A DNA stretch of 64,000 nt from Escherichia coli. GTDB lineage: Bacteria; Pseudomonadota; Gammaproteobacteria; Enterobacterales; Enterobacteriaceae. Where the stretch lies: the NCBI RefSeq assembly GCF_001677475.2, contig NZ_CP015229.1; one strand, written 5' to 3'. The notes beneath the pieces were generated by a model. It was not told the DNA's origin and did no database searches. It saw only the letters and a list, made by a program, of their open reading frames with translations. The translations under genes and the position numbers were made by a program. Each line of letters starts with the position of its first letter. Within the stretch, counting starts at the first letter, position 1. Of this stretch, positions 2,908 through 62,855 are shown piece by piece.

Positions 2908-2918
2908 AAGGAATAGTA

Positions 2919-4826: not shown

Positions 4827-4955
4827 TCGCAAAATAGTCGATTTAAACAGAGACAGCTGACAACGGTAAAATTGCCTGATGAATTGGGTTTATCAGGCAT
4901 GAAAACCAACACTTTGTTCGTCATCTGTAAAATAGCGCATCATTAAGGAGTACCA

Positions 4956-6209
4956 ATGTGCGAACATCATCATGCCGCGAAGCACATCCTGTGCTCGCAG
5001 TGTGACATGCTGGTGGCGTTACCGCGCCTTGAGCATGGTCAGAAAGCGGCATGTCCCCGGTGTGGCACAACGTTAACCGTGGCGTGGGATGCCCCTCGGC
5101 AGCGTCCCACCGCCTATGCGTTGGCTGCACTGTTCATGCTGTTGCTGTCCAACTTGTTTCCTTTTGTGAATATGAACGTTGCAGGAGTTACCAGTGAAAT
5201 TACATTACTGGAAATTCCCGGCGTGCTTTTTTCTGAGGACTACGCCAGCCTCGGCACCTTTTTCCTGTTGTTTGTGCAACTGGTTCCCGCGTTTTGTCTG
5301 ATAACCATTCTGTTACTGGTGAATCGCGCGGAATTACCGGTCCGTTTAAAAGAGCAACTGGCACGGGTGCTTTTTCAACTCAAAACCTGGGGAATGGCGG
5401 AGATTTTCCTTGCGGGTGTGCTGGTCAGTTTCGTTAAACTGATGGCCTACGGCAGCATTGGTGTCGGCAGCAGCTTTCTCCCCTGGTGTTTATTTTGTGT
5501 CCTGCAACTGCGCGCCTTTCAGTGCGTTGATCGTCGCTGGTTGTGGGACGATATCGCCCCGATGCCAGAACTGCGCCAGCCGCTAAAACCTGGCGTCACG
5601 GGGATACGTCAGGGGCTGCGTTCTTGCTCCTGTTGTACGGCAATCCTTCCTGCTGATGAACCCGTATGCCCGCGCTGTGGTACTAAAGGGTACGTTCGGC
5701 GTAGAAACAGCCTGCAATGGACACTCGCGCTGCTTGTAACGTCCATCATGCTGTATCTTCCGGCTAATATTTTGCCCATCATGGTGACGGATTTATTAGG
5801 CTCGAAGATGCCATCGACGATTCTCGCTGGGGTCATCCTGTTATGGAGCGAAGGATCTTATCCCGTCGCTGCGGTTATCTTTCTGGCCAGTATTATGGTG
5901 CCAACGTTAAAGATGATCGCCATAGCGTGGTTGTGTTGGGATGCCAAAGGGCATGGCAAGCGCGACAGTGAAAGAATGCATTTGATTTATGAAGTTGTTG
6001 AGTTTGTAGGCCGCTGGTCGATGATTGACGTTTTCGTTATCGCGGTGCTCTCGGCGCTGGTGCGTATGGGAGGTTTAATGAGTATTTATCCGGCAATGGG
6101 TGCATTAATGTTTGCTTTAGTCGTCATAATGACAATGTTTTCTGCTATGACGTTTGACCCGCGTTTGTCGTGGGATCGTCAACCTGAATCAGAGCATGAG
6201 GAGTCCTGA
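4956..6209 (+). CDS. pqiA: paraquat-inducible membrane protein PqiA
   Basis: 417 aa with duplicated CxxC zinc-ribbon plus TM modules. Syntenic with pqiB. Confidence 0.93.
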   Translation: MCEHHHAAKHILCSQCDMLVALPRLEHGQKAACPRCGTTLTVAWDAPRQRPTAYALAALFMLLLSNLFPFVNMNVAGVTSEITLLEIPGVLFSEDYASLGTFFLLFVQLVPAFCLITILLLVNRAELPVRLKEQLARVLFQLKTWGMAEIFLAGVLVSFVKLMAYGSIGVGSSFLPWCLFCVLQLRAFQCVDRRWLWDDIAPMPELRQPLKPGVTGIRQGLRSCSCCTAILPADEPVCPRCGTKGYVRRRNSLQWTLALLVTSIMLYLPANILPIMVTDLLGSKMPSTILAGVILLWSEGSYPVAAVIFLASIMVPTLKMIAIAWLCWDAKGHGKRDSERMHLIYEVVEFVGRWSMIDVFVIAVLSALVRMGGLMSIYPAMGALMFALVVIMTMFSAMTFDPRLSWDRQPESEHEES

Positions 6210-26098: not shown

Positions 26099-28549
26099 TT
26101 AAAAATCAACCGGATTCGGGATCAGTTTTTGCCAGATTGCTGAAACGTATTTTGCCTGGTAACGAGCGTCATCAAGTGCATTATGGCGCTCACCTTCGAA
26201 TGGGATAGCTGTTCTGGCATCGAAGTCTATGGCTTTCCCCAGCTCAACGATTGTGCGTACATCGCGATCGTTGCAGTAGCGCCAAGGGCAGGGGATACCC
26301 TGTCGTTCGTATGAACGGCGTAAAATCACGTTGTCGAAGTTGGCCCCATTACCCCAGACCTGAACAAAAAATTCACCGGAGTTTTCGTCGATAAATTCCC
26401 GCAATTGCAGCAGTGCATCATCTAACGGGATTTCATCGGTCAGAATGGCAGATTGCGCCTCGCGTGATTGCTTAAGCCACCATTTTATGGTGTCACGATT
26501 AATGACTCCGCCAGCAGTTTCCAGATCGATGGTCTTACTAAATTCCGGCCCCATATCTCCGGTTTGCGGATCGAAAAATATTGCACCTATTGAGATAATC
26601 GGGGCATCGGGATTTTTTCCCATGGTTTCAAGGTCGATCATAAGATGGTCACATGACCTGCTTGTGGATGTGATATTGTGATAACCGTTCACCTTAATTA
26701 AGGGATCTGTTGCTTCGCCAGTTTCATTATCGCTGGCGTGATGCTGATTGCCTCCAGTGTTCTCCTTGTGTGGATGTTCAGCGCCTTCCATTTCCTCCGG
26801 ATCATTCTCCTGAGCTTCAACCTGATTCTCTTCATCGAATGTTTCCTGGTATGTTGCGTTTCCCATGACCGCGCCACAGTCAGGACAGTTGCCGCCGCTG
26901 CTCTGACCGCAGACGGTGCAGACTTTTTCCGGTTCCTGTTGCACTACTGGTTCGGATTGTTTCGTTTCTGGTTCGTTTTGTTGCGCATTTGGGCTGTTTT
27001 GTTCCGCTTTCTGGTCGTTCTGTGCCGTTTCTTGCTGGTTCTGGTTCACAGAATCGCGGGTTTCAATCCCCTTCACCCATTTCGGATCATTCGGGTCGCT
27101 AATCCCTGCAACAAATTCACCACGTGATGCAGCGAGCAACTGACTGGCGTCAGGCAGGCTGATATTGGCTGCCTGCATAATTTTGTTTACTTCGTCAGCG
27201 GTAACTTTTACCTGATTAACCGGATCTATCTGTGCCTGAGTATCCAGCGATTGCGTGTCCTGGCGAAGTTCAGTTGTATCCGGCTCCATTGCTTCAGTCG
27301 TTGCCTGTTCATCTGCCATTGCGTCAGACGGTTGTGATTTTTCATCATTATTTTTTTCTTCTTCTGTTTCGCGTTTAGCAGCCAGTTCGCGGTTAACTTC
27401 TTCCTGGATATCTTTTTCCGGTGTATGTCGTGCAGCAGCGAGAGTTTCTTCGGTAGGGTTCTCGTGATCAGTCTCCGTTAAGTGGGCGTTGATATACTCC
27501 TGAAGGCGTCCCGGGTAGAGATAAAGTTCAGGGTGAGCACTTCGGATAAGTGCAAAAATAGCGGCACGGGAATAATCCAGAATACCAGGGGTTGCGCGAA
27601 GTGCTGCGGACCATTCTTTGAACGGACTTTCTTTCTTCCGGACGACTTCTTTTGCGCGACGATAAACGCTGCCCGGAATTTCATAAATATTAAAATCCAT
27701 CGGAAGTGTGGCCGCTGCAATCTCCACATCCAGCGTATCGAAGGTGTGTACTAAATTCGGATTGCGATCGGTTTTGTTCCCGCCGCCAGCATTAGCACCG
27801 GAAGCCGTGCGGATGATGCGTGAAACACGATTCCCCTTCATCCACTCTTTTGTAAGCAGACCGCGATCGGTGTAGTCAGCGCCCAGGTATGCTTCGAAAA
27901 AAGCAGTCATCAGTCCCAGGTCTGAATTGCCAGGATTAGGGAAAACTTTGTCAGTGTCACGAACCAGTTTGTGGAGATCGCGAATTTCCAGCGGTTCGAG
28001 TTGCGCTGCTTTATTTGAGATGGCCAGCGCGGTAACGGCGGGAAGTTTTTCATCCTGTGCGTTATGTAATGCGCGCAGTTCGCCCCGCGAAACGTGAGTG
28101 ATCGGTTTTTCGCTGCCGTGCTGAGCAAGCCAGCGAATGGGAAGTATCTGGCCAGAAACCGGGAGTAGCATATTCTCCTCAATATCAGTCATGTCTTCGC
28201 CGTTGACGTTGGTATTGTCAGTGCTGGCTGGTTTATCCTGAACAGAGGGCGCGATAAATACCATTGTGATACCATCTTCCCCGCCTTTTTCGTATCGGTT
28301 GCAGAATTCGGTATCAAACACACCTTCCGGAGGCAGGTCATTCACAACGGGTAAATGGACGCGGACGGGTTTTTTAAAGTCGTCTTCATCATAATCGTTG
28401 TCATCCATTGCGGTAATACAACGGGAGATGGCAACAGATAATTTTTTTGCTGTGGTCCAGTAAAAACCACCTTTAATTCCCAGGCGTTTTCTGACTTTGT
28501 CATTTTTTGCTTCGCAATATAGCGCAAATTCTTCTTTTTCAGTGCTCAT
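26099..28549 (-). CDS. large early protein with C-terminal DEDDh 3'-5' exonuclease domain
   Basis: 816 aa. The C-terminus has DLETMG, NGANFD and HNALDDA motifs (Exo I/II/III). The central region is an acidic/Q-rich linker plus a CTVCG..CPDCG zinc ribbon. Confidence 0.8.
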   Translation of the reverse strand: MSTEKEEFALYCEAKNDKVRKRLGIKGGFYWTTAKKLSVAISRCITAMDDNDYDEDDFKKPVRVHLPVVNDLPPEGVFDTEFCNRYEKGGEDGITMVFIAPSVQDKPASTDNTNVNGEDMTDIEENMLLPVSGQILPIRWLAQHGSEKPITHVSRGELRALHNAQDEKLPAVTALAISNKAAQLEPLEIRDLHKLVRDTDKVFPNPGNSDLGLMTAFFEAYLGADYTDRGLLTKEWMKGNRVSRIIRTASGANAGGGNKTDRNPNLVHTFDTLDVEIAAATLPMDFNIYEIPGSVYRRAKEVVRKKESPFKEWSAALRATPGILDYSRAAIFALIRSAHPELYLYPGRLQEYINAHLTETDHENPTEETLAAARHTPEKDIQEEVNRELAAKRETEEEKNNDEKSQPSDAMADEQATTEAMEPDTTELRQDTQSLDTQAQIDPVNQVKVTADEVNKIMQAANISLPDASQLLAASRGEFVAGISDPNDPKWVKGIETRDSVNQNQQETAQNDQKAEQNSPNAQQNEPETKQSEPVVQQEPEKVCTVCGQSSGGNCPDCGAVMGNATYQETFDEENQVEAQENDPEEMEGAEHPHKENTGGNQHHASDNETGEATDPLIKVNGYHNITSTSRSCDHLMIDLETMGKNPDAPIISIGAIFFDPQTGDMGPEFSKTIDLETAGGVINRDTIKWWLKQSREAQSAILTDEIPLDDALLQLREFIDENSGEFFVQVWGNGANFDNVILRRSYERQGIPCPWRYCNDRDVRTIVELGKAIDFDARTAIPFEGERHNALDDARYQAKYVSAIWQKLIPNPVDF

Positions 28550-46716: not shown

Positions 46717-46845
46717 GAAAGTAACATCACGCCGTAACAACAGTGCAGTCTGTCCTGATTTTTTTAGTAACCAAATGAAAGAAAAAGATTTTTTCTTGTT
46801 CGTCGTTTTTGTTTTTTCTGGATGGTTCTGGCTGTTTTCATCATT

Positions 46846-46868
46846 TGTGTATTGCACTGTGTATTGCA
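46846..46868 (+). repeat. tandem TGTGTATTGCA x2 (putative integrase arm-type sites, left end)
   Basis: Copies lie at 46846-46856 and 46858-46868. A similar pair, GTGTATTGC x2, lies at 62023-62043 with the same 12-nt register. Confidence 0.6.
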
Positions 46869-46887
46869 AAAACGGGTTATAAATCAC

Positions 46888-48111
46888 ATGGCGCTAAACA
46901 AACTGAGCGATAAAAAACTTCGTTCCCTGCTTGGACGCAGGAGTGAGAGACAGGAAACCATCGCTGATGGTAACGGGCTTTCGGTACGGGTCAGTAAATA
47001 CGGATGTGTTAGTTTTGTTTTCTTTTACAGACTGGCGGGAAGGGGAACCGCGCCCATCTGGCTGACACTTGGAAAATATCCTGATCTGAGTCTCAAATCA
47101 GCGAGAGAGATGCGCGATCAGTGTCGAACCTGGCTTGCGGAGGGCAGAGATCCACGGATTCAGATAAAAATTGAACGGGAAGCCACCTTGCAACCTGTTA
47201 CCGTTCGTGAGGCACTTGAATACTGGCTTGATAATTATGCAATGGATAAGCGTAGGGGAGCAGAACATATCAGGCAGTGCTTTGGTAAACATATTTATCC
47301 GGTGATTGGTCATGTACCACTTAGTGATTGCTCTATATCTATGTGGATTAAGTGTTTTGACAAAATAAAAAAAGTAGCACCTGTACAGGCCGGAGCTTTG
47401 TTGCGTATATCAAAACAGGCGCTTAAATTTTGTAGGGTAAGAAAATACGCGATTAGTCATGAAATTGATGATCTTGAGGTCTGTGATGTGGGAAAAAAGT
47501 CTGCGCGAAGAAGCAGGGTTTTAACAGATGATGAAATCAGAGATTTATGGCGAAGTATTAATACTGATTATGACAATCACGAATTATCATATGAAAACCG
47601 AATTATTTTACGTTTCCTGGTAGTTTTTGGTTGCCGACTGTCAGAAGTATTACTGTCGTCCTGGGGAGAGTGGGATTTTGATAAGAAATTATGGCGCGTT
47701 CCCGCTGAACATAGCAAAAATGGCAGGGAAATAATCAGACCGATTCCTGATGGCATGTTTAACTGGTTAGTTACGTTAAAAAAAATAACAGGTAACAAAG
47801 AAAATGTGATTGGGTTTGATATGCGTCAGTGTACGGCAAGCGTAACTATCGGTAAGACATGGAAAAGGATGAAACACTCGGAGAAATGGACGGCGCATGA
47901 TATGCGAAGAGTGTTTGCCACAAAACTAAGTGATCATGGTTTTGAACATAATGTGGTTGAACAGTTGCTTGGGCACACATTAGGCGGTGTTGCCGGGGTT
48001 TATAACAGAAGCCAGTATATGGACAGAAAAAAAGAAGCTATGAACTGGTGGTACGACTATCTGAATAAGCAAATTAGTGGTGACGGTAATGATTCAAATA
48101 GTTACGCGTGA
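46888..48111 (+). CDS. int: P4-type tyrosine integrase of the satellite
   Basis: 407 aa from MALNKLSDKKLRSLLG. The C-terminal catalytic region reads GCRLSEVL...HDMRRVFATKL...LGHTLGGVAGVYNR. Confidence 0.88.
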   Translation: MALNKLSDKKLRSLLGRRSERQETIADGNGLSVRVSKYGCVSFVFFYRLAGRGTAPIWLTLGKYPDLSLKSAREMRDQCRTWLAEGRDPRIQIKIEREATLQPVTVREALEYWLDNYAMDKRRGAEHIRQCFGKHIYPVIGHVPLSDCSISMWIKCFDKIKKVAPVQAGALLRISKQALKFCRVRKYAISHEIDDLEVCDVGKKSARRSRVLTDDEIRDLWRSINTDYDNHELSYENRIILRFLVVFGCRLSEVLLSSWGEWDFDKKLWRVPAEHSKNGREIIRPIPDGMFNWLVTLKKITGNKENVIGFDMRQCTASVTIGKTWKRMKHSEKWTAHDMRRVFATKLSDHGFEHNVVEQLLGHTLGGVAGVYNRSQYMDRKKEAMNWWYDYLNKQISGDGNDSNSYA

Positions 48112-48310
48112 AGAACTTGAAAATGATAAAACAATCGACAGGATGATTAAGGAAGATGAATGTGCATGGTTAACCGCTCTTGGCAGGAGACACAGATCGT
48201 TACTTGAAAAGGAAGGAAAATTTCCACGAAAAATATGTATTGGTCCACAAACAAAAGTCTGGCGCTTATCTGAGGTGCTGGAATGGGTAAAAGGTGAATG
48301 GAAACCCTGA
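48089..48310 (+). CDS. alpA: AlpA-family HTH regulator/excisionase 1
   Basis: RMIKEDECAWLTALGRRHRSLLEKEGKFPRKICIGPQTKVWRLSEVLEWV fits the AlpA pattern. The start is uncertain (48077, 48089 or 48143). Confidence 0.7.
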   Translation: MIQIVTREELENDKTIDRMIKEDECAWLTALGRRHRSLLEKEGKFPRKICIGPQTKVWRLSEVLEWVKGEWKP

Positions 48311-48373
48311 GCTAAATTAAATGAGATATAATCAACCCGTCTTTTGGCGGGTTTTTTTATAGGTGATATTTTT

Positions 48374-48652
48374 ATGCAAAAATTTATTTATCCTACACCC
48401 GAAGAACGCATTCAGATTCTGAAAGATCATGGCGAACCGTATGATCGCCGTATACGCGAACATGAGTGTGCCAATCGTACCGGGCTTTCAAGAAGCAGAC
48501 GTTGGGTACTTGAACAGGAGGGAGCATTTCCTGCTCGTGCTCATTTAGGGAAAGTGTCTGTTTCCTGGTTGCTCTCTGATGTGCTCTGGTGGGTTATGCA
48601 TCCGCCAGGAGTAAAGGAAGTAAACAGCCCATACAAAAACGCCAATAAGTAA
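48374..48652 (+). CDS. AlpA-family HTH regulator 2
   Basis: 92 aa with IREHECANRTGLSRSRRWVLEQEGAFPARAHLGKVSVSWLLSDVLWWV. Confidence 0.7.
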   Translation: MQKFIYPTPEERIQILKDHGEPYDRRIREHECANRTGLSRSRRWVLEQEGAFPARAHLGKVSVSWLLSDVLWWVMHPPGVKEVNSPYKNANK

Positions 48653-48662
48653 TTACCGACAA

Positions 48663-48690
48663 CCCCGCACCACGCAATGCGGGGTTTTTT
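48663..48690 (+). terminator. rho-independent terminator
   Basis: CCCCGCA-CCACGCAA-TGCGGGG-T6. Confidence 0.8.
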
Positions 48691-48709
48691 GTATGTGAGG
48701 TAGAAAGTG

Positions 48710-49303
48710 ATGAATAAAAATATTGCCGTGACGGGCAAGGGTGACGCACGTCATGTGAAAAAATTCTGTGATATTCGTGATCTGGTCGTTCTGCGCTTTG
48801 ATAGTGTGAACGTTCGCGTGGTGTATCTGAACGGCGATCCGTGGTTTGTTGGCGCTGATGTGTGTGCGGCGCTGGAAATTAGCAACGTTACCGATGCTGT
48901 TTCAGTTCTGGATAACGATGAGGTAATGACCCTAGCTTTAACCGAGGGTCATTCAGGTAAGCGTGGTGGTGCCAGAAGTTGGAATGTTGTATCAGAATCA
49001 GGTTTTTACAAGTTGATCGCCAGAAGTCGCAAAGCTGTTAATCCTGGCACGTTCGCCCATCGTTTCAGTAATTGGGTATTCAGAAATGTGATACCGGGTA
49101 TCAGAAAAACGGGGGCTTATGGTATCCCGTGGGGCGCATTACAGGATTTTTCCCGCCGCAAAGAGCAATATCAGGTAAGTGCCAGCGAGAAGGGGAGGGA
49201 GCTACAGGCATGTAAGCGCAAAAAGCGTGAGCTAGAGGAAGAAGAAAAAAGGCTGATACGTGAATATCAGCCTGAGTTTTACTTTGGTGAGCGTATTCAG
49301 TAA
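48710..49303 (+). CDS. BRO-N domain (antirepressor-like) protein
   Basis: 197 aa with VRVVYLNGDPWFVGADVCAALEISN...SESGFYKLIARSRKA...FSNWVFRNVIPGIRKTGAY. Confidence 0.75.
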   Translation: MNKNIAVTGKGDARHVKKFCDIRDLVVLRFDSVNVRVVYLNGDPWFVGADVCAALEISNVTDAVSVLDNDEVMTLALTEGHSGKRGGARSWNVVSESGFYKLIARSRKAVNPGTFAHRFSNWVFRNVIPGIRKTGAYGIPWGALQDFSRRKEQYQVSASEKGRELQACKRKKRELEEEEKRLIREYQPEFYFGERIQ

Positions 49304-49461
49304 CCACACGCGGTGCTGATTATACGGTACATCGTGTTAACCGAGAAGCTACCCACCAGCAAGGCAAAATCTTCTGCTAAAAAATGACATATGGCCAGTC
49401 GTCTGGAAAGCATGAAATTTTACAAAAATGGAAAATGAAGATTTTTATTGTGCTGGTGGGT

Positions 49462-49492
49462 AAAAACAAAAAGCGCCCCGTTGCCGGAGCGC
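49462..49492 (-). terminator. minus-strand rho-independent terminator
   Basis: The minus strand reads GCGCTCCG-GCAA-CGGGGCGC followed by TTTTTGTTTTT. Confidence 0.75.
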
Positions 49493-49588
49493 CCTTGCGA
49501 ACAATTAACCTACTGCGCAAAAAAATGAATCTGTGCAGGGGGATTATATCAACCGTGTGACGAAGCGCCACAATTGCCGGATAACAGG

Positions 49589-49617
49589 CAAAGAAAAGGC
49601 CACCCGCTACGGTGGCC
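49589..49617 (-). terminator. minus-strand terminator/attenuator
   Basis: The minus strand reads GGCCACC-GTAGCG-GGTGGCC followed by TTTTCTTTG. Confidence 0.6.
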
Positions 49618-49768
49618 CTTCGACACAAGCTACACGTTATCCCCAACGCATGAGCGTCGCCAACAATGCCACATTTGCGGCTGGTGGGCAATGTGATCAG
49701 TGTGCTGGCTTGCTGGTGGGCTATTCCTGCTCTTTGGCCTTGCGTTGCTTTAGTGCTGCACGAGCTAA

Positions 49769-55608: not shown

Positions 55609-56754
55609 ATGAAGAAATTAATCGAACTCCGCCAGCAAAAAACCGCCCTGAAAAACCAGATGCGATCCCTGCTGGAAAAAGCCGACAGTGAAAACCGCAG
55701 CCTGAACGATGACGAAGGCAAACAGTTTGATGAACTGCGTGCAAAAGCCGATTCCCTCGACACAGAAATCTCCCGTCTTGAAGCTGTTGCGGATGAAGAA
55801 CGTAACCAGCCAGGTGTTTGCGTCGAAGAGAAAATTACCAAAGACGAACTGCGCTCTTACATTCTGACCGGGGAAACCCGCAACCTGTCCGGCAGTGTTC
55901 CGGCTGATGGTGGTTATACGGTTATCCCGGAACTGAACAGAGAAATTATGCGTCAGCTTTCTGATGAATCGGTGATGCGTAAAATCTGTACTGTTAAAAC
56001 CATTCACAGCAATGAATTTAAGCAACTGGTTTCTGCCGGGGGCGCGGTCGTTGAACACGGTGAAGAAGGCACTACACGTAACCAGACGGCAACCCCAAAA
56101 CTGAATGAAGTCAGTATCCGCCTGTATCCGATCTACGCTTACCCGAAAACCACTCAGGAAATTATCGATTTTTCCGAAGTCGATATTATGGGCTGGTTAT
56201 CTTCTGAAATTGGCGACACTTTCGTTGATACCGAAGAAACGGATCTGGTTTCTGGTGATGGCGAGAAAAAAGCTAAAGGTTTCCTGGCTTTTCCGCGCAC
56301 TGAGGATAACGACAAAACCCGTCCTTTCGGTACGCTCCAGACGAAAAAAGTTACTGGCAGTCTTAGCGCCGACATGCTGATTGACCTGAAATTTACGCTG
56401 CGCAATAAGTACCGCAAAAAAGCTGTATGGGTGATGAACTCAAATACAGCCGCCTCCGCACAAAAACTGAAAAATGCCACTGGTGATTACATCTGGCGCG
56501 ATCGTTTACAGGCTGGTGATCCTGATTCTCTGCTGGGGCTTCCGGTTGAATATCTGGAATTTATGCCGGACGGTGTGATTGCAGTAGGTGACTTTAAGCG
56601 CGGTTATTTCATCGTTGACCATGAAACCGGTACGCGTACCCGTCCGGATTTCAGCGAACCTGGATTCATTAACATCTATACCCAGAAATATCTGGGCGGT
56701 GGTGTGGTGGATTCGAACGCCATCAAGATTCTGGAAATTCAGGCTGGCAAGTAA
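55609..56754 (+). CDS. HK97-family major capsid protein (with N-terminal delta/scaffold domain)
   Basis: 381 aa with an N-terminal coiled coil and then a capsid fold. The gene order capsid-protease-portal supports the call. Confidence 0.85.
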   Translation: MKKLIELRQQKTALKNQMRSLLEKADSENRSLNDDEGKQFDELRAKADSLDTEISRLEAVADEERNQPGVCVEEKITKDELRSYILTGETRNLSGSVPADGGYTVIPELNREIMRQLSDESVMRKICTVKTIHSNEFKQLVSAGGAVVEHGEEGTTRNQTATPKLNEVSIRLYPIYAYPKTTQEIIDFSEVDIMGWLSSEIGDTFVDTEETDLVSGDGEKKAKGFLAFPRTEDNDKTRPFGTLQTKKVTGSLSADMLIDLKFTLRNKYRKKAVWVMNSNTAASAQKLKNATGDYIWRDRLQAGDPDSLLGLPVEYLEFMPDGVIAVGDFKRGYFIVDHETGTRTRPDFSEPGFINIYTQKYLGGGVVDSNAIKILEIQAGK

Positions 56755-56760
56755 TGAGCA

Positions 56761-56785
56761 AAGGGGGCTTCGGCCTCCTTTTTCA
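56761..56785 (+). terminator. hairpin plus T-run after capsid gene (attenuator)
   Basis: AAGGGGGC-TTCG-GCCTCCTT followed by TTT. Confidence 0.55.
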
Positions 56786-56803
56786 GCTTTATGGAGTACA
56801 CCG

Positions 56804-57364
56804 ATGAAAAACACCGATTTTGAAATCCGTACATCTGAACTGACCGCCAGCGATAAAAAACTGGTGGGTTATGCCGTTCGCTGGAACAGCCTTTCAGAAA
56901 TTATTTGGGACGAATTCCGCGAACAGTTCACGCCGGGGGCTTTTGCTGACTATCTGGCGGCGGGTAATGATGTGCGCTGCCTGTATGAGCATGACTATAC
57001 CCGACTGCTGGGGCGCACCAAATCCGGAACACTGGTACTGACTGAGGACAACACCGGGCTACGTTTTGAACTGACACCGCCTGATACCCAGCTTGGAAAA
57101 GATGTGCTTACGCTGGTGGAGCGTGGCGACATTACAGGAATGAGCTTTGGCTTTCGCGCATTATGCGAAGAGTGGAATATCGCGCAAAAACCGTATCTGC
57201 GCACTGTTACCGCCGCAGAACTCCGTGAAATCACGATAACGTCGATGCCTGCTTATCCCGAATCTGGCGTGGAGATTGCCCACCGTTCGTTGTTTGCACA
57301 GCACCCTGAATTACGCCCGGCAGGAAATAATCGTCATCGCTGGGCTGAACTGGCGGGGTTGTGA
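56804..57364 (+). CDS. HK97-family prohead protease
   Basis: 186 aa from MKNTDFEIRTSELTASDKKLVGYAVRWNS...YEHD...GMSFGF. Confidence 0.85.
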   Translation: MKNTDFEIRTSELTASDKKLVGYAVRWNSLSEIIWDEFREQFTPGAFADYLAAGNDVRCLYEHDYTRLLGRTKSGTLVLTEDNTGLRFELTPPDTQLGKDVLTLVERGDITGMSFGFRALCEEWNIAQKPYLRTVTAAELREITITSMPAYPESGVEIAHRSLFAQHPELRPAGNNRHRWAELAGL

Positions 57365-57365
57365 T

Positions 57366-58580
57366 ATGTGGTGGCCTTTTAGTCGTAAAAAAAGCGATCT
57401 GCGTAACCTGTCCATTGATGATTTTCTGGCGCTGTCCGGCGTACCGAATACCGGATCCGGAGAATATGTTTCTGCCGGGACGGCTGAATCATTGCCTGCT
57501 GTGATGAACGCGGTTTCTGTCATCGCTGAGGCGGTGGCCACGATGCCGTGTTATCTGTATCTGGTACGCAATGATAAGGGCAGGGAGGCGCGGGAGTGGC
57601 TGGACAGTCATCCGGTCGATATTCTGCTGAATGAGCAGCCTAATTCGTGCCAGACACCTTACCAGTTTAAACGCACAATGATGCGTCACTGCCTGCTGAA
57701 CGGTAACGCCTATGCGGTTATTGAGTGGGGGCGGGACGGTCAGCCAAAATCACTTCATCCTTATGCGCCGGGGTGTGTTGTACCGGAACGCACTGGCGCG
57801 CACAAATACCGCTATACCATCACCGAACCCTATACAGGAACGGTGCGCACGTATTTACAGGAAGAAGTCCTGCATCTCCGCTATGCCTCGGATGATGGCT
57901 TTCTGGGACGTTCCCCCGTCACGATTTGCCGTGAGGCGCTGGGGCTTGGCCTTGCTCAACAGCGTCACGGAGCCAGCATTATGAAAGATGGCATGATGGC
58001 GGCAGGGATTATCACGTCAGGCGAATGGCTGGACGGTGTGAAAGGTAAACAGGCATTAGACGCCCTGGAACGCTACAAGGGGGCGAAAAATGCCGGAAAA
58101 ACGCCAATCCTTGAAGGGGGCATGGATTACAAGCAACTGGGGATGAGTAACCAGGATGCGGAATGGCTGGCCTCCCGTCGCTTCTCCATTGAAGACATCG
58201 CCCGGATGTTCAACGTGTCGCCGATTTTTCTTCAGGAATACAGCAACAGCACCTACAGCAATTTCAGTGAGGCAAGCCGCGCGTTTCTGACCATGACAAT
58301 GCGCCCATGGCTGGCGAACTTCGAACAGCAAATTAAGGCCGCTTTGCTGGTGGCTTCTCCCGTACCTGGTACCCGTTATCTGGTTGAGTTTGATTCAGCC
58401 GATTTACTGCGCGCTACTCCAACCGAGCGTTACGCCACGTATGAGAAAGGGATTAAGAACGGGATCATGAATCCGAACGAAGCCCGCGAACGTGAGGGGA
58501 TGCCGCCGCGTGAAGGTGGCGACGAATTCAGCCAGGCATGGAAGCAGACGGTGGAAATTAAAGGTGAAAAAGATGAGTGA
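57366..58580 (+). CDS. HK97-family portal protein
   Basis: 404 aa from MWWPFSRKKS. It is homologous to the prophage portal at 63049. Confidence 0.85.
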   Translation: MWWPFSRKKSDLRNLSIDDFLALSGVPNTGSGEYVSAGTAESLPAVMNAVSVIAEAVATMPCYLYLVRNDKGREAREWLDSHPVDILLNEQPNSCQTPYQFKRTMMRHCLLNGNAYAVIEWGRDGQPKSLHPYAPGCVVPERTGAHKYRYTITEPYTGTVRTYLQEEVLHLRYASDDGFLGRSPVTICREALGLGLAQQRHGASIMKDGMMAAGIITSGEWLDGVKGKQALDALERYKGAKNAGKTPILEGGMDYKQLGMSNQDAEWLASRRFSIEDIARMFNVSPIFLQEYSNSTYSNFSEASRAFLTMTMRPWLANFEQQIKAALLVASPVPGTRYLVEFDSADLLRATPTERYATYEKGIKNGIMNPNEAREREGMPPREGGDEFSQAWKQTVEIKGEKDE

Positions 58581-58872
58581 AGAAAAAATTACACCTGATG
58601 AAGTCAGGGCACATCTTCGCCTTGATGACTTTTCCGGAGAGGGCGAACTTCTGAAAATGTATACCGATGCGGCGCTGGAAGCCTGCCAGAAGCATATCGG
58701 GAAACGTTTTGAAGACGGCCTGGAATTTACCCCGGCAATACGTGTTGGTTGCCTGATGTACATTGCTTTCCTGTACGAGAACAGGGAAGCGGTTTCACCT
58801 GTGGAGCAGTCTGAACTGCCTATGGCTATTTCTGCGCTCTGGTCGGTTTATCGTGATGTGGGGGTGTACTGA
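58573..58872 (+). CDS. gp6-like head-tail connector
   Basis: 99 aa from MSEEKITPDEVRAHLRLDD. Confidence 0.7.
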   Translation: MSEEKITPDEVRAHLRLDDFSGEGELLKMYTDAALEACQKHIGKRFEDGLEFTPAIRVGCLMYIAFLYENREAVSPVEQSELPMAISALWSVYRDVGVY

Positions 58873-59312
58873 TGCCGTGGCAACCATTAAGGCGATGCAC
58901 TGAGCCGGGCTGTAATAAGCGCGTGAAGTCCGGCAAGTGTGAAGAGCACAGGCGGGCTGCATGGCGTGCAGAGGATGCCAGACGGGGACACCGCCGCGCG
59001 CGCGGGTATTCCCGACAGTGGGACAAATACCGCGCCCTGTACCTGAGCAAAAACCCGTTATGCGTGCGTTGTCTGGCTAAGGGGATTTATACGCCAGCTC
59101 TTGTGGTGGATCACATCATTCCCATCAATGGCGGCGGTGATGTTCTCTTCTGGCCTGAGTGGAACCACCAGGCATTGTGCCAGACGTGCCACAACCGTAA
59201 GACGACACGGGAAGACCCAGCCACGAAAGCGAACCGTAAGGCGGGCATGTATCGCGAGCAGGAAGAACGGGCGGCACACCGTAACGACTGGATGTATGGC
59301 GATGATGACTGA
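58872..59312 (+). CDS. HNH endonuclease (packaging-associated)
   Basis: 146 aa with CVRC...DHIIPINGGG...CQTCHNRKT. Confidence 0.85.
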   Translation: MPWQPLRRCTEPGCNKRVKSGKCEEHRRAAWRAEDARRGHRRARGYSRQWDKYRALYLSKNPLCVRCLAKGIYTPALVVDHIIPINGGGDVLFWPEWNHQALCQTCHNRKTTREDPATKANRKAGMYREQEERAAHRNDWMYGDDD

Positions 59313-59600
59313 ACATGAGCAAAACAGGCTGATACGTGGACTGATAAGGCAACGTGACTTATGGAAGACACAGGAGACAGGGCACAAAGCCAACAGGACA
59401 GGGCGCACAGAACGCACCACAGCGAAGCGATTAACCGACCGTGACCGCGAGGTCATGGAATGTTTTCGCAATCGCTGGTGAGGCTGTCAGAGGGGGTGGG
59501 GGAGGTTTTCAGGACGAAACCGTCCCTGCCGGACACCGACCGCCTCCTCAAATTTTTGTGCACGGTAATTTTTTTGAAAATAATTGGGCGAAAAAAGAAC

Positions 59601-59957
59601 ATGGCAAGACCACCAAAAGCCCCCGCTTACCTGGATGAAATCGCGGTCAGGCAGTGGAAGGAAAAATCGCGCCAGCTTTCCGTGCGGGAAGACCTTACCC
59701 CCGCCGACTGGAGCAATCTGGAACTGTATTGTGTTAACTACTCCATATACCGCAAAGCCGTCGAAGACCTTGCGACGCGCGGGTTCAGCATTGTTAACAG
59801 TCAGGGCAGCGAGAGCAGAAACCCCGCCCTGAGCGCAAAGGCTGACGCGGAAAGAATAATGATCAAAATGGCTTCTTTGCTGGGTTTTGACCCGGTAAGC
59901 CGCCGCAGAAATCCACCGGAAACAGAGGAAGAGGACGAGCTTGACCGCCTGGCATGA
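59601..59957 (+). CDS. terS: terminase small subunit (P27-type)
   Basis: 118 aa from MARPPKAPAYLDEIAVRQW. Confidence 0.8.
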   Translation: MARPPKAPAYLDEIAVRQWKEKSRQLSVREDLTPADWSNLELYCVNYSIYRKAVEDLATRGFSIVNSQGSESRNPALSAKADAERIMIKMASLLGFDPVSRRRNPPETEEEDELDRLA

Positions 59958-61602
59958 GTACGCAGAAGGCGTAAAAAACGGCAAAATTACGGCCTGTAAA
60001 CGACTGAAACAGGCCGTTAAACGGTATTTTTCTGACCTTGAAAACCCCCTTTACACGTTCGAGCCGGAGGTCGTGGAGCGGTTTATTGCCTTTTCCAGGG
60101 TGTGTCCGCACGTAAAAGGCGCAATGCGCGGTAGCCCCATTGAGCTGGAGCCGTGGCAGCAGTTCGCCTTTGCGTGCATCCTGGGCTTTAAGGTTAAGGC
60201 CACCGGACGGCGCAAATACACCAGCGCATTCATTGAAGTACCGCGTAAAAATGCCAAATCCACGGTCGCCGCTATCCTGGCTAACTGGTTTCTGGTTATG
60301 GAAAACGGGCAGCAGGATATTTACACCGCCGCCGTGAGTCGTGATCAGGCGCGGATCGTGTTTGATGATGCGCGTCAGATGTGCCTTTTATCCCGACCGT
60401 TACGAAAGCGGGTAAATATTCAGGCACACAAGGTGATACACCCGAAAACCAACAGCCTGTTAAAGCCACTGGCAGCAAAAGCGGCAACCATTGAAGGTAC
60501 AAACCCGAGTCTTGCTATTGTGGATGAATATCACCTGCACCCTGACAACGGGGTTTATTCCGCGCTTGAACTGGGAATGGGGGCGCGTCCGGAGGGGTTA
60601 TTATTTGCCATCACCACATCGGGGAGCAACGTTGTTTCAGCCTGTAAACAACACTACGACTATTGCTGCCAGATACTGGATGGTGAAGAGGTGAACGAAT
60701 CCATGTTCGTGCTGATTTACGAGCTGGATGATGAAAGCGAGGTTGACGATCCGGCGATGTGGATAAAGGCGAATCCCAATATCGATGTTTCCGTCGATCG
60801 TGAAAAACTGGCCTCAACCATCCAGAAAGCGCGGGGTATTCCGTCGCAGTGGGTGGAGATGCTCACCAAGCGATTCAATATCTGGTGTCAGGGGGCTACG
60901 CCGTGGATGGGTAACGGTGCATGGGCGGAGTGCGCCGGAACGTTCGCGGAGGCGGATTTATACGGGCAGGAGTGCTACGCGGGGCTGGACTTATCATCAA
61001 CCAGCGATATTTCCAGCGTGTGCTATGCCTTTCCGGTCGGTAAAAAGATTATGCTGGTTTCCCGTCACTATCTGCCGGAATTTCAGCTACAGAACCCCGC
61101 CAATAAAAACCGCGCCATCTATCGCCAGTGGGTAAAGGCGGGCTGGATACGCACAACACCGGGTGACTGCATTGATTATGACCGTATCCGTGATGACATC
61201 ATGGCGGATGCAGAGAATTTCAATATCAGGCTGGTGGGCTTCGATACATGGAACGCCACGCACCTGAGGACGCAGCTACAGGGCGCAGGATTTGAGGTGG
61301 AGCCGTTCCCGCAAACATACCTTCGTTTCAGTCCGGCGGCGAAATCGTTCGAAGTTTTTGTTAACCGGAAGGTGATTGTGCATCGTGGTGATCCGGTGCT
61401 GGCCTGGTCAATGAGTAATGTTGTGATGCAGAGTGACGCGAACGCCAATATCAAGCCGAACAAGAAAAAATCATCCAACAAGATAGACCCGAGCGTTGCG
61501 GCGCTGATGGCGTTTGGCACATTCCAGGCAGAGCATGAGGAATTTGCATTCGATATGAGCGACAGCCACAAAGAGCGGCTTGCGGCGTTTGATGGTGTGT
61601 AA
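59941..61602 (+). CDS. terL: terminase large subunit (intact, satellite copy)
   Basis: 553 aa, colinear with both fragments of the prophage terL. Confidence 0.88.
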   Translation: MTAWHEYAEGVKNGKITACKRLKQAVKRYFSDLENPLYTFEPEVVERFIAFSRVCPHVKGAMRGSPIELEPWQQFAFACILGFKVKATGRRKYTSAFIEVPRKNAKSTVAAILANWFLVMENGQQDIYTAAVSRDQARIVFDDARQMCLLSRPLRKRVNIQAHKVIHPKTNSLLKPLAAKAATIEGTNPSLAIVDEYHLHPDNGVYSALELGMGARPEGLLFAITTSGSNVVSACKQHYDYCCQILDGEEVNESMFVLIYELDDESEVDDPAMWIKANPNIDVSVDREKLASTIQKARGIPSQWVEMLTKRFNIWCQGATPWMGNGAWAECAGTFAEADLYGQECYAGLDLSSTSDISSVCYAFPVGKKIMLVSRHYLPEFQLQNPANKNRAIYRQWVKAGWIRTTPGDCIDYDRIRDDIMADAENFNIRLVGFDTWNATHLRTQLQGAGFEVEPFPQTYLRFSPAAKSFEVFVNRKVIVHRGDPVLAWSMSNVVMQSDANANIKPNKKKSSNKIDPSVAALMAFGTFQAEHEEFAFDMSDSHKERLAAFDGV

Positions 61603-61682
61603 CGGAATGGATGAGAGAGGACAATGCTCATTTAATGGAATAAATTTTCAGTATTACCGGCACCCACTTTCAGGGATGTTTT

Positions 61683-61838
61683 TGCGGGTTATTTGAGGGG
61701 TGTTTGCGGGTTATTTTGAATGTCTTGCGGGTTACATTCTGGCTGATATTTAAATACGTTGTTTTTTTAACGTATTGATATTAAAGAGTAAAAGATAATT
61801 AGCACGCGAAGATAACCCGCTAACCCGCATAACCCGCA
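61683..61838. repeat. TGCGGGTTA array: 3 direct (21-22 nt phasing) plus 3 inverted tandem copies around an AT-rich palindrome
   Basis: Direct copies lie at 61683, 61705 and 61726. Inverted TAACCCGC copies lie at 61813, 61821 and 61830. The palindrome AATACGTT-N8-AACGTATT lies at 61752-61776. Confidence 0.85.
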
Positions 61839-62022
61839 CTGTTTTGTATATATATACGAAAAATTGCATTCAGGGGGGATCGAAATTTCTACTGCCTCTT
61901 ATCTCTTTGAGTGCTCACCTCGTCAGATTGTTACACACAAGAAATAAAAAATGCTTCGCGATGGTAGGTCGAATCACTGTATCAAAAAACGGTGTGTATC
62001 AGCATTAAAACAATACAGATAC

Positions 62023-62043
62023 GTGTATTGCGCTGTGTATTGC
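62023..62043 (+). repeat. tandem GTGTATTGC x2 (putative integrase arm sites, right end)
   Basis: This pair matches the left-end pair at 46846-46868. Confidence 0.6.
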
Positions 62044-62118
62044 TCGATGATTTATAAAGACTGTTTTTTCATGTTAAACGATTGATATACAGACGATTTT
62101 AAAAAGCTTGAAATATTC

Positions 62119-62125
62119 TCACGAA
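62119..62125. repeat. satellite attR core TCACGAA
   Basis: See the attL core. Confidence 0.75.
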
Positions 62126-62855
62126 ACACATGAATGTGTGGGTCACTGCCGAATCGGCCTGGATGGACATGATTAAGTGGGAGAAGTGCGAATACATCGC
62201 TCCACAGCATGAGCTGAAAACGTATCCCATGTGGGTCGGCGTCGACCTTGCACATAAGATTGATATCTGTGCGGCGGCAAAACTCTGGCGAACGGATAAC
62301 GGGCATGTTCATGCCGATTTTAAATTCTGGCTTCCGGAAGGGCGACTGGAACGGTGTTCACGGCAGCAGGCAGAACTTTACCGGAAGTGGGCGGAGATGG
62401 ATAAGCTCATCCTGACGGATGGTGATGTTATCGATCATGCTCAGATAAAAAGTGACTTACTGGAATGGATTGGTGGTGAAAACCTCAGGGAACTGGGATT
62501 TGACCCGTGGAGCGCGATGCAGTTCAGCCTGGCACTGGCTGAAGAAGGGATACCGCTGGTGGAGGTTCCGCAGACGGTCCGCAATCTGTCAGAGGCCATG
62601 AAGGAAACGGAATCACTGGTCTATGCCGGACGTTTCCACCACAGCAATCACCCGGTCATGAACTGGATGATGTCTAACGTTACGGTGAAACCGGACAAAA
62701 ACGACAATATCTTCCCGAATAAATCCACGCCGGAAGCCAAAATCGACGGCCCTGTTGCGATGTTTACAGCAATGAGCCGGATGCTGGTCAATGGCGGTGA
62801 ACCGGAGCCGGATCTGTCTGAACACCTGATCAGTGTTGGTATCCGCTCGCTTTAA
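62126..62855 (+). pseudogene. terL: prophage terminase large subunit, 3' (nuclease) fragment
   Basis: HMNVWVTAESAWMDMIKWEKC... aligns with satellite TerL FNIWCQGATPWMGNGAWAEC. The fragment is in frame with the 5' fragment when joined at the core. Confidence 0.88.

What the first reader, a model, noticed from the sequence alone, without database searches (positions are those of the whole stretch)
49353..49719. Four Chi sites within 370 bp, arranged convergently, in non-coding DNA of the satellite
**Seen in sequence.**
- GCTGGTGG occurs on the plus strand at 49452, 49680 and 49712.
- It occurs on the minus strand at 49353.
- All four lie in an ORF-poor stretch downstream of the BRO-N gene.

**Established knowledge.** RecBCD recognises Chi only when it approaches from the 3' side of GCTGGTGG.

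**Inference.**
- An enzyme entering from higher coordinates meets three correctly oriented Chi sites. One entering from lower coordinates meets the fourth.
- On a linear satellite genome with ends near the HNH-terS region, both entry directions would be attenuated at this locus.
- This looks like a built-in anti-RecBCD device for an element that has no visible Gam-like inhibitor.
- An 8-mer is expected about once per 65 kb per strand by chance, and about once per 5 kb in E. coli.
Basis: partly seen in the sequence, partly recalled or inferred. Interest (0 to 1): 0.65.

Follow-up and report, generated by a model that had tools for sequence, protein, structure and literature searches.

The report
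Chi-rich phage satellite, one local cluster
The four Chi sites are real and conserved, but they are the densest patch of a phage satellite that carries Chi throughout, a strategy already described for phages that lack their own recombination genes and rely on the host RecBCD enzyme.

Summary
**Observation: confirmed.** GCTGGTGG lies at 49353 (-), 49452, 49680 and 49712 (+), in the untranslated spacer between BRO-N and ylcI.

**Setting.** The spacer belongs to a capsid-forming PICI satellite inserted in terL of an HK97-type prophage in an Escherichia chromosome.

**Not an isolated device.**
- Chi is the commonest octamer of the whole island: 12 in 14.8 kb, 9 on the + strand.
- In genes there are 8 sites against 1.5 expected from synonymous-codon shuffles.
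- Given that density, four sites in 367 bp is only mildly unusual (P about 0.02).
- Related PICIs carry about 1 Chi per kb. The experimentally studied EcCICFT073 has 10 in 11 kb.
- Two lambda-like prophages in the same CFT073 genome have none. One of them encodes Gam/Bet/Exo.
- In 22 capsid-forming PICIs, distinct sites are 34 + to 14 -. The + orientation is the one active for RecBCD entering at the inferred cos-cut right end.
- No Gam or recombinase family was detected in the island.

**Best reading.** This is the known "no recombination module, many Chi" strategy, here in a satellite. The cluster formed where Chi-bearing tails of small minus-strand units were brought together by deletion.

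**Caveats.**
- The 49680 site sits in a 22-nt conserved, promoter-like element that may be conserved for other reasons.
- The proposed role in establishment is weakened because EcCICFT073 transfers equally well into a recA recipient.

The parts
49353..49360 (-). Chi octamer. It is read by RecBCD travelling towards higher coordinates. It lies 50 nt after the BRO-N stop and forms an inverted 12-mer (TGCTGGTGGGTA) with the site at 49452.
49452..49459 (+). Chi octamer directly next to the T-tract of minus-strand terminator T1. It marks the left edge of the conserved T1 block.
49680..49687 (+). Chi octamer inside the 22-nt conserved element GGCTGGTGGGCAATGTGATCAG (49679-49700).
49712..49719 (+). 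Chi octamer one base after the stop codon of a remnant ylcI-type gene (minus strand, ...KQRKAKEQE*).
49679..49700 (-). Conserved element CTGATCACATTGCCCACCAGCC as read on the minus strand. In relatives it holds the stop codon and first 3'UTR bases of a 59-aa minus-strand gene that is deleted here. It also reads as a -35-like TTGCCC, with a -10-like hexamer exactly 17 bp downstream in four diverged variants.
49721..49768 (-). Remnant of the 3' end of a second ylcI-type gene, about 15 codons and a stop.
49590..49617 (-). Terminator T2 (GGCCACC-loop-GGTGGCC followed by a U-tract). Relatives show compensatory stem changes.
49469..49496 (-). Terminator T1, a 12-bp stem with a GCAA loop and a U-tract.
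49543..49551 (-). Extended -10 promoter TGATATAAT of a candidate small RNA of about 75 nt that ends at T1.
48707..49303 (+). BRO-N gene, the left border of the spacer.
49916..50101 (-). ylcI/ynfO family gene, the right border of the spacer.
46822..61602 (+). The capsid-forming PICI, from int to terL. It carries 12 Chi sites. Besides the four above they are at 50413(-), 51854(-), 52850, 53078, 53816, 57112, 58346 and 61230 (all +).
59313..59459 (.). HNH-terS spacer, the inferred position of cos and therefore of the ends of the packaged DNA. This is an inference from HK97-type gene order and was not mapped.
   Evidence: inference

Best explanation
**What it is.**
- The four octamers are working-type Chi sites. 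They belong to an island-wide load of Chi in a capsid-forming PICI that has no recombination or anti-RecBCD genes of its own.
- The element most likely uses the strategy described for lambdoid phages without a recombination module (the LLS class) and for phage P1.

**Proposed mechanism.**
- The satellite's DNA acquires a double-strand end as a rolling-circle tail or as a concatemer cut at cos.
- Host RecBCD enters at that end and travels against the direction of packaging.
- It meets a correctly oriented Chi within about 1 kb, nicks there and loads RecA.
- The end then recombines into another copy of the island and is not lost. This preserves the DNA and makes the concatemers needed for packaging.

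**Why four sites sit together.**
- The cause is anatomy, not a purpose-built trap. The spacer is a stack of small minus-strand units.
- Two of the Chi sites lie in the untranslated tail just after the stop codon of such a unit, a ylcI-type gene and a 59-aa gene. A third abuts the terminator of a small-RNA-like unit.
- In this island the coding parts of two units were deleted, which brought two Chi-bearing tails within 32 bp of each other.

**Shown.** Presence, enrichment, orientation bias, conservation, and the absence of detectable Gam or recombinase families.

**Inferred.** The position of cos and the packaging direction, entry by RecBCD, and the benefit to the island.
For: **Enrichment.**
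- Chi is the most frequent octamer of the island: 12 in 14,820 bp, or 0.81 per kb.
- E. coli K-12 has one Chi per 4.6 kb (PMC12315714).
- In genes there are 8 sites against 1.5 expected after synonymous-codon shuffling, with 0 of 3000 shuffles reaching 8. All six sense-strand sites sit in the frame nnG CTG GTG Gnn.

**Family.**
- 80 related loci average 1.0 Chi per kb. Chi is the top octamer in about 112 kb of non-redundant sequence.
- Sixteen capsid-forming PICI spans listed individually, including a lineage with only 68-70% capsid identity, each carry 8-15 Chi and all are plus-biased.
- Distinct sites in 22 such spans are 34 + to 14 -, binomial P = 0.0055.
- Codon usage predicts nearly equal numbers on the two strands: 0.81 sense and 0.70 antisense.

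**Control within one genome, CFT073.**
- EcCICFT073 has 10 Chi in 11 kb.
- A lambda-like prophage with Gam/Bet/Exo has 0 in 46.6 kb.
- The late region of a second lambda-like prophage has 0 in 17.8 kb.
- Chromosomal flanks have about 0.2 per kb.

**No recombination module detected.** No Gam, Abc2, RecT, Erf or Bet family was found in the island. Only an SSB was found.

**Gene order.** HNH, spacer, terS, terL is the HK97 arrangement. The + strand is therefore the active orientation for entry at the right end, as in LLS, where 20 of 23 sites are so oriented.

**Cluster anatomy.**

**The host prophage fits the same pattern.** It has 9 Chi in 21.9 kb, 7 on the + strand. No Gam family hit was found among its ten largest early-region ORFs.
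Against: - EcCICFT073 shows no orientation bias (5+/5-).
- A lambda-like prophage of the same CFT073 genome encodes Gam. By my own knowledge, helper phage lambda encodes Gam too. Gam would silence RecBCD during helper growth.
- EcCICFT073 establishes equally well in a recA recipient.
- The plus-strand sites are not concentrated near the inferred right end, unlike in LLS.
- Nearly all island genes lie on the + strand, so the effects of packaging direction and transcription direction on Chi orientation cannot be fully separated.
- Six island ORFs have no assigned function and could hide an inhibitor.
- The cos position was inferred from gene order, not mapped.
- The 49680 site may be conserved as part of a promoter or 3'UTR element and not as Chi.
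Confidence: 0.55

Rival explanations
1. By-product of other conserved elements. On this reading the spacer's Chi octamers are kept because they are part of regulatory sequence of small minus-strand transcription units. Candidates are a -35 region, the start of a 3'UTR, a small-RNA flank or a protein-binding site. Being Chi would be incidental at this locus.
For: - The 49680 site lies in a 22-nt element that stays nearly invariant across four flank variants that are otherwise about half diverged.
- In about 7 of 75 sequences the first G of Chi is T or A, while CTGGTGGGCAA is kept.
- The element reads TTGCCC, 17 bp, then TATGAT, TATCAT, TATTCT or CATTGT. A terminator follows about 30-60 nt downstream.
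- The consensus scan flags this promoter in two diverged variants.
- All four spacer sites share GCTGGTGGG followed by C or T.
- A conserved promoter-to-terminator unit abuts the site at 49452.
Against: - It cannot explain the eight coding Chi sites or the family-wide excess.
- The four spacer sites have four different contexts beyond 10 nt.
- Islands that lose Chi in the 22-nt element keep another Chi 32 bp away.
- Across 156 collapsed Chi sites in these loci there is no shared extended motif.
- No Rfam family matches the region.
Confidence: 0.2
2. The convergent cluster is a dedicated two-way anti-RecBCD stop that protects the injected linear satellite genome during establishment in a new cell.
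For: - The orientations are as described.
- The same -,+,+,+ arrangement is present in islands whose spacer is only partly alignable and is rearranged.
- Tandem Chi sites protect cut plasmid DNA better than a single site (Kuzminov 1994, as cited in 10.1101/2021.07.08.451572).
- P1 carries Chi sites oriented towards each of its ends.
Against: - The cluster lies about 4.7 kb from the inferred left end and about 9.7 kb from the right end. Five correctly oriented sites lie nearer the right end.
- Most relatives have only one or two Chi sites in this spacer.
- EcCICFT073 transfers equally well into a recA strain. The reported protection by Chi needs RecA.
- By my own knowledge, cohesive ends of cos DNA normally anneal quickly after injection.
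Confidence: 0.12
3. Recombination hotspots that drive module exchange. RecBCD arriving from either side would be activated at the border between the int-alpA-bro module and the regulation-replication module. Crossovers would concentrate there and produce the mosaicism seen in this family. This would be an evolutionary consequence, not a function in the life cycle.
For: - The spacer is strikingly mosaic. No E. coli genome covers 80% of it, and blocks of 48-240 bp are shared in many combinations.
- Sequence similarity breaks off immediately beside the Chi sites at 49680 and 49452.
Against: - The conserved side lies 5' of Chi at 49680 but 3' of Chi at 49452. The junction polarity therefore does not follow the single direction expected from Chi-stimulated exchange.
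- Selection for evolvability is a weak force.
- This reading does not account for the coding-region excess.
Confidence: 0.08
4. Chance, or slow drift of a long-resident island towards host composition.
For: - E. coli DNA is itself rich in Chi.
- Zheng et al. note that cryptic prophages could accumulate Chi as the chromosome does.
Against: - The island's density is about four times the chromosomal average.
- Co-resident lambda-like prophages in CFT073 have no Chi at all.
- The synonymous-shuffle test gives P < 1/3000.
- There are four sites in 612 bp of untranslated DNA.
Confidence: 0.03

Closest known systems
Lambdoid phages with no recombination module and many Chi sites (LLS class; Zheng et al. 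2025, PMC12315714; Bobay et al. 2013, PMC3784561)
   Same: - No recombinase or RecBCD inhibitor.
- Chi is the most frequent octamer.
- Density is well above that of the host.
- Most sites face the way that is active for RecBCD entering at the right cos end.
- Co-resident phages with Gam have none.
   Different: - This element is a 14.8-kb satellite, not a phage.
- Its density (0.81 per kb) is higher than that of LLS (0.54 per kb).
- Sites are not concentrated at the right end.
- Dependence on RecBCD is untested.
Phage P1, with 50 Chi sites and RecBCD/RecA-dependent circularisation (10.1101/2021.07.08.451572)
   Same: - A high Chi load, with Chi as the top octamer.
- Sites of both orientations that face in from the ends.
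   Different: - P1 packages by the headful mechanism and needs recombination between terminal repeats.
- This island has HK97-type cos packaging.
Chi protection of rolling-circle plasmids and cut plasmids (Dabert 1992 and Kuzminov 1994, as cited)
   Same: - A cis-acting Chi spares linear DNA from RecBCD.
- Tandem sites work better than a single site.
   Different: - Those were engineered constructs.
- The protection needed RecA.
- Here the sites are natural and spread over a whole element.
Capsid-forming PICIs (EcCIEDL933 type; 10.1101/2022.09.08.507074) and helper-embedded PICIs (PMC10111431)
   Same: - Same gene set: int, alpA, primase/helicase, capsid, protease, portal, HNH, terS and terL, with no tail genes.
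- Inserted in a prophage late gene.
   Different: The cf-PICI preprint has no occurrence of Chi or RecBCD in its text. A term search of the helper-embedded PICI paper found no discussion of Chi sites.
Lambda Gam and other protein inhibitors of RecBCD
   Same: They address the same problem, exposure of linear intermediates to RecBCD.
   Different: The mechanism is the opposite one: a trans-acting protein blocks the enzyme, instead of a cis-acting signal that recruits it. No such protein was detected in the island.

Membership tests
Chi site (RecBCD recombination hotspot, enteric type) | Exact octamer 5'-GCTGGTGG-3' | tested here: met
   Four exact matches at the stated coordinates.
Chi site (RecBCD recombination hotspot, enteric type) | The host is an enteric bacterium whose RecBCD reads this octamer | tested here: met
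   Chromosomal DNA of the window is 95-99% identical to 5425 of 5426 E. coli genomes. The recBCD genes themselves lie outside the window.
Chi site (RecBCD recombination hotspot, enteric type) | Oriented so that RecBCD coming from a real double-strand end approaches from the 3' side | tested here: inconclusive
   Nine of the island's 12 sites fit entry at the inferred right end beside HNH. The cos position and packaging direction come from gene order only.
Chi site (RecBCD recombination hotspot, enteric type) | Stimulates RecBCD-dependent nicking or recombination | not testable with these tools
   This needs genetic crosses or biochemistry.
Elements with no recombination module and high Chi density (Zheng et al. 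2025) | No recombinase and no RecBCD inhibitor encoded | tested here: inconclusive
   No such family was found in Pfam, PHROGs, NCBIfam or PADLOC. Six ORFs remain without an assigned function.
Elements with no recombination module and high Chi density (Zheng et al. 2025) | Chi density above that of the host, and Chi the most frequent octamer | tested here: met
   0.81 per kb and rank 1 in the island. Rank 1 in the family as well.
Elements with no recombination module and high Chi density (Zheng et al. 2025) | Excess not explained by codon usage | tested here: met
   8 sites against 1.5 expected; 0 of 3000 synonymous shuffles reach 8.
Elements with no recombination module and high Chi density (Zheng et al. 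2025) | Strong bias towards the orientation active from the right end | tested here: met
   9+/3- in this island. 34+/14- distinct sites in 22 capsid-forming PICIs, P = 0.0055. The classical PICI EcCICFT073 is 5+/5-.
Elements with no recombination module and high Chi density (Zheng et al. 2025) | Growth enhanced by RecBCD | not testable with these tools
   This needs titres from recBCD mutant hosts.
Elements with no recombination module and high Chi density (Zheng et al. 2025) | The element is a lambdoid phage | tested here: not met
   It is a satellite without tail or lysis genes. It therefore works like this class but is not a member as the class was defined.
Capsid-forming PICI | int, alpA, replication module, own capsid, portal, HNH, terS and terL, and no tail genes | tested here: met
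   Pfam assignments and the annotation of relative L001, which includes the prohead protease.

The most novel reading that the evidence does not exclude
- E. coli PICI satellites as a class are saturated with Chi, at about 1 per kb, with Chi as their commonest octamer. They would depend on host RecBCD-RecA recombination to replicate and be packaged.
- The conserved untranslated -,+,+,+ cluster would be a selected two-way switch point for RecBCD. It sits at the border between the integration module and the replication module.
- One of its sites would double as the -35 region of a small minus-strand RNA unit.
Probability: 0.2. Interest if true: 0.55.

Novelty: new member of a known kind. Interest (0 to 1): 0.38.

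Why it matters
- If satellites follow the same rule as phages, carrying either their own recombination genes or many Chi sites, then host RecBCD is a hidden requirement for the spread of these islands. PICIs are reported to have a broad impact on bacterial virulence (abstract of PMC6739421, listed).
- The idea is cheap to test, by comparing transfer from recB or recC donors with transfer from wild-type donors.
- It raises a question about helpers. A helper that encodes Gam should switch off the pathway the satellite seems built to use. The benefit must then arise with Gam-less helpers, such as the Chi-rich HK97-type prophage that hosts this island, or at another stage of the life cycle.
- I found no paper describing Chi enrichment in PICIs. 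That point would be a modest new observation within a known framework.

Tried and rejected
- **Relatives by ylcI in one genome per species.** Only three distant loci turned up, and they were not informative.
- **The spacer against the phage collection.** No match.
- **Rfam on the spacer.** Only sub-threshold, terminator-like hits.
- **Protein-coding reading of the conserved block.**
  - The plus-strand frame (..NNATFAAGGQCDQ..) has a stop codon in one variant.
  - The PGAP pseudogene call in L009 rests only on the first ~20 residues, which match the N-terminus of the 266-aa protein encoded upstream in L013.
  - The minus-strand frame (LPTS...) has no proper start codon and shows mostly non-synonymous differences. 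Rejected.
- **A general extended Chi motif (GCTGGTGGG plus a pyrimidine).** Not seen across 156 collapsed Chi sites in these loci.
- **Independent origin of the cluster in two spacer variants.**
  - Three blocks (T1, and those around the 49680 and 49712 sites) are clearly homologous.
  - The AT-rich segment is 76% identical but rearranged. Independence therefore cannot be claimed.
- **Mosaic junctions as footprints of Chi-stimulated exchange.** The polarity differs between the sites at 49680 and 49452.
- **Special enrichment of this spacer across the family.** Its density of 0.79 per kb is no higher than that of the rest of the islands.
- **Defence-gene or inhibitor search for the unassigned ORFs.** Nothing found.

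Full report
**1. The observation**

GCTGGTGG occurs at 49353-49360 on the minus strand and at 49452, 49680 and 49712 on the plus strand, exactly as reported.

- The whole window has 30 Chi sites, against 2.2 expected from dinucleotide-preserving shuffles.
- Random placement gives four sites within 367 bp with P = 7e-4 at the average E. coli density.
- It gives P = 0.017 at the window's own density and P = 0.023 at the island's density.
- The cluster is real and non-random, but only mildly surprising once the local Chi load is taken into account.

**2. Where it is**

- The first ~25 kb of the window is Escherichia chromosome. A 5-kb sample (1000-6000) is 95-99% identical to 5425 of 5426 E. coli genomes.
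- From about 25 kb runs a lambdoid prophage with an HK97-type packaging module: HNH, a P27-family terS, then terL.
- Its terL is split by a 14.8-kb insertion at 46.8-61.6 kb. The remainder of terL resumes at 62130.
- The insertion is a capsid-forming PICI. It carries:
  - an integrase, two AlpA-type regulators, BRO-N and ylcI/ynfO;
  - two Icd-like genes with a C4 antisense RNA (72 bits);
  - DUF4222, an AAA_25 helicase, SSB and PerC;
  - capsid, portal, HNH, terS and terL, with no tail genes.
- A satellite sitting inside a late gene of a prophage is a published configuration (PMC10111431).
- The four Chi sites lie in the 612-bp spacer between the BRO-N stop (49303) and the ylcI stop (49916).

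**3. Anatomy of the spacer**

It does not code for protein, but it is not empty. Reading the minus strand downstream from ylcI, the features are:

- a 47-codon hydrophobic ORF (49912-49769);
- about 15 codons and the stop of a second ylcI-type gene (...KQRKAKEQE*), with Chi 49712 one base after that stop;
- the element CTGATCACATTGCCCACCAGCC (49700-49679), which contains Chi 49680;
- terminator T2 (49617-49590), whose stem shows compensatory changes in relatives;
- an extended -10 promoter, TGATATAAT (49551-49543), followed about 48 nt later by terminator T1 (49496-49469). This promoter-to-terminator unit is conserved in 19 sequence variants, including EcCICFT073. It has no Rfam match;
- Chi 49452, which touches the T-tract of T1;
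- a 91-bp AT-rich segment;
- Chi 49353. Sites 49353 and 49452 are inverted copies of TGCTGGTGGGTA.

In many relatives the 22-nt element begins with the TGA stop codon of a 59-aa minus-strand gene that is missing from this island. Two of the four sites are therefore 3'-untranslated tails of genes whose coding parts were deleted here. That deletion brought the two sites within 32 bp of each other.

**4. The island as a whole**

- Chi is the commonest octamer of the island: 12 sites, or 0.81 per kb, 9 of them on the plus strand. E. coli K-12 has one per 4.6 kb.
- Eight sites lie in genes. Shuffling synonymous codons within each gene gives 1.5 on average, and none of 3000 shuffles reached 8.
- All six sense-strand sites use the frame nnG CTG GTG Gnn.

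**5. Relatives**

- The spacer is mosaic. About 930 E. coli genomes share parts of it, none shares 80% of it, and the phage collection has no match.
- Eighty IMG/VR loci were collected by anchoring on the Icd-like gene. Nearly every one with enough upstream sequence has at least one plus-strand Chi downstream of ylcI. Several sequence variants show the same -,+,+,+ pattern.
- These loci average 1.0 Chi per kb. Chi is the top octamer in about 112 kb of non-redundant sequence.
- Within the spacer region alone the family density is 0.79 per kb, which is no higher than elsewhere in the islands.
- Sixteen capsid-forming PICI spans listed individually, including a lineage with only 68-70% capsid identity, each carry 8-15 Chi, and all are plus-biased.
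- After collapsing near-identical sites across 22 such spans, the count is 34 plus to 14 minus, P = 0.0055. Codon usage predicts near equality.

**6. An internal control**

All of the following lie in the single genome of E. coli CFT073:

| Region | Chi sites | Length |
|---|---|---|
| EcCICFT073, the experimentally studied PICI | 10 | 11 kb |
| Lambda-like prophage with Gam, Bet and Exo | 0 | 46.6 kb |
| Late region of a second lambda-like prophage | 0 | 17.8 kb |
| Chromosomal flanks | about 0.2 per kb | 4.9 and 6.0 kb |

- EcCICFT073 includes the conserved 49680-type site.
- This rules out simple drift towards host composition.
- It reproduces, for a satellite, the split described for lambdoid phages: those with their own recombination genes avoid Chi, and those without them accumulate it (PMC3784561; PMC12315714).

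**7. Mechanism**

- No Gam, Abc2 or recombinase family was found in the island.
- The gene order HNH, spacer, terS, terL is that of HK97.
  - This places cos in the 147-bp spacer at 59313-59459.
  - It makes packaging run in the plus direction.
- By analogy with lambda and LLS, RecBCD would enter at the free right end and travel towards lower coordinates. It would then read plus-strand Chi.
- On that path it meets 58346, 57112, 53816, 53078 and 52850 before it reaches the cluster.
- The most likely role is the published one. Chi turns RecBCD into a recombination enzyme that rescues linear intermediates and helps to build concatemers.
- These steps are inferred, not shown.
- The host prophage fits the same pattern. 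It has 9 Chi in 21.9 kb, 7 on the plus strand, and no Gam hit among its ten largest early-region ORFs.

**8. What weakens this reading**

- EcCICFT073 has no orientation bias.
- A lambda-like prophage of the same CFT073 genome encodes Gam. By my own knowledge, helper phage lambda does too.
- EcCICFT073 transfers equally into recA DH5alpha (PMC6092414, Table 1).
- The 49680 site is part of a 22-nt element that is conserved across four otherwise diverged variants.
  - In about 7 of 75 sequences the first G of Chi is replaced while the rest of the element is kept.
  - The element reads as a -35 hexamer TTGCCC with a -10-like hexamer exactly 17 bp away. The consensus scan flags this in two diverged variants.
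  - This site may therefore be conserved for a reason other than being Chi.
- Homology between the two main spacer variants is partial and rearranged. The recurrence of the four-site pattern therefore cannot be counted as independent evolution.

**9. Verdict**

Chi probably matters to this element through RecBCD. The cluster, however, is the densest patch of an island-wide load, not a purpose-built two-way trap, and the principle is already published for phages.
- Extending the principle to PICI satellites appears to be new. I found no paper that describes it.
- I therefore rate the finding as a new member of a known kind, of moderate interest.

Noticed in passing
window 49469-49551, minus strand: Candidate unannotated small RNA gene. 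It has an extended -10 promoter (TGATATAAT), a 5' part of about 45 nt containing the conserved stretch GUAGGUUAAUUGUUCGCAA, and then terminator T1. It is conserved in 19 sequence variants, including EcCICFT073, and matches no Rfam family.
   Followed up: partly
window 49590-49700, minus strand; L047 1894-1972; L026 2629-2707: A second mini-unit. A promoter-like TTGCCC, 17 bp, then a -10-like hexamer overlaps the complement of Chi 49680. Terminator T2 follows 30-60 nt later and shows compensatory stem changes between relatives.
   Followed up: partly
window 49769-49912, minus strand: A 47-codon hydrophobic ORF directly after ylcI (MQQVLYWLGSLFLFAFLLGNC...). Locus L089 has a similar C-terminal motif. 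It has no hit in PHROGs or PADLOC and may encode a small membrane peptide.
   Followed up: partly
window 49533-50504, plus strand; L013 1445-2782; L028 2903-4204: One plus-strand frame stays open for 323 codons here and for 433-445 codons in relatives. It runs through the spacer, antisense through the ylcI genes, and in frame into icd. It is probably a shadow ORF, but its length is unexplained.
   Followed up: no
window 46822-62855: The satellite is inserted in terL of an HK97-type lambdoid prophage. The terL N-terminal part ends near 46882 and the C-terminal part resumes at 62130. This is the published helper-embedded PICI configuration. The same arrangement is seen in L001 and L007.
   Followed up: partly
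window 50535-50739, plus strand: P1-type immunity elements downstream of the Icd-like gene at 50301-50504. They are a C4 antisense RNA (72 bits), its a1/b1 target region, and a weak isrK-like match. A second protein with an Icd-like domain lies at 50497-50964.
   Followed up: partly
window 54478-55314, minus strand: Two opposite-strand ORFs of 118 and 157 aa lie between perC and the capsid gene. Neither has a hit in Pfam, PHROGs, PADLOC or NCBIfam. This looks like an accessory-gene slot of the island.
   Followed up: partly
window 26099-28549, minus strand: The prophage encodes an 816-aa protein that joins an exonuclease VIII N-terminal domain to an Rv2179c-like 3'-5' exonuclease domain. No RecT or Gam family hit was found among the prophage's ten largest early-region ORFs. 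The prophage itself is Chi-rich, with 9 sites, 7 on the plus strand.
   Followed up: partly
L090 2371-49001 and L091 1-17800 (E. coli CFT073): A lambda-like prophage with Gam/Bet/Exo has no Chi site in 46.6 kb, and the 17.8-kb late region of a second lambda-like prophage has none either. The PICI lying between them has 10 in 11 kb.
   Followed up: yes
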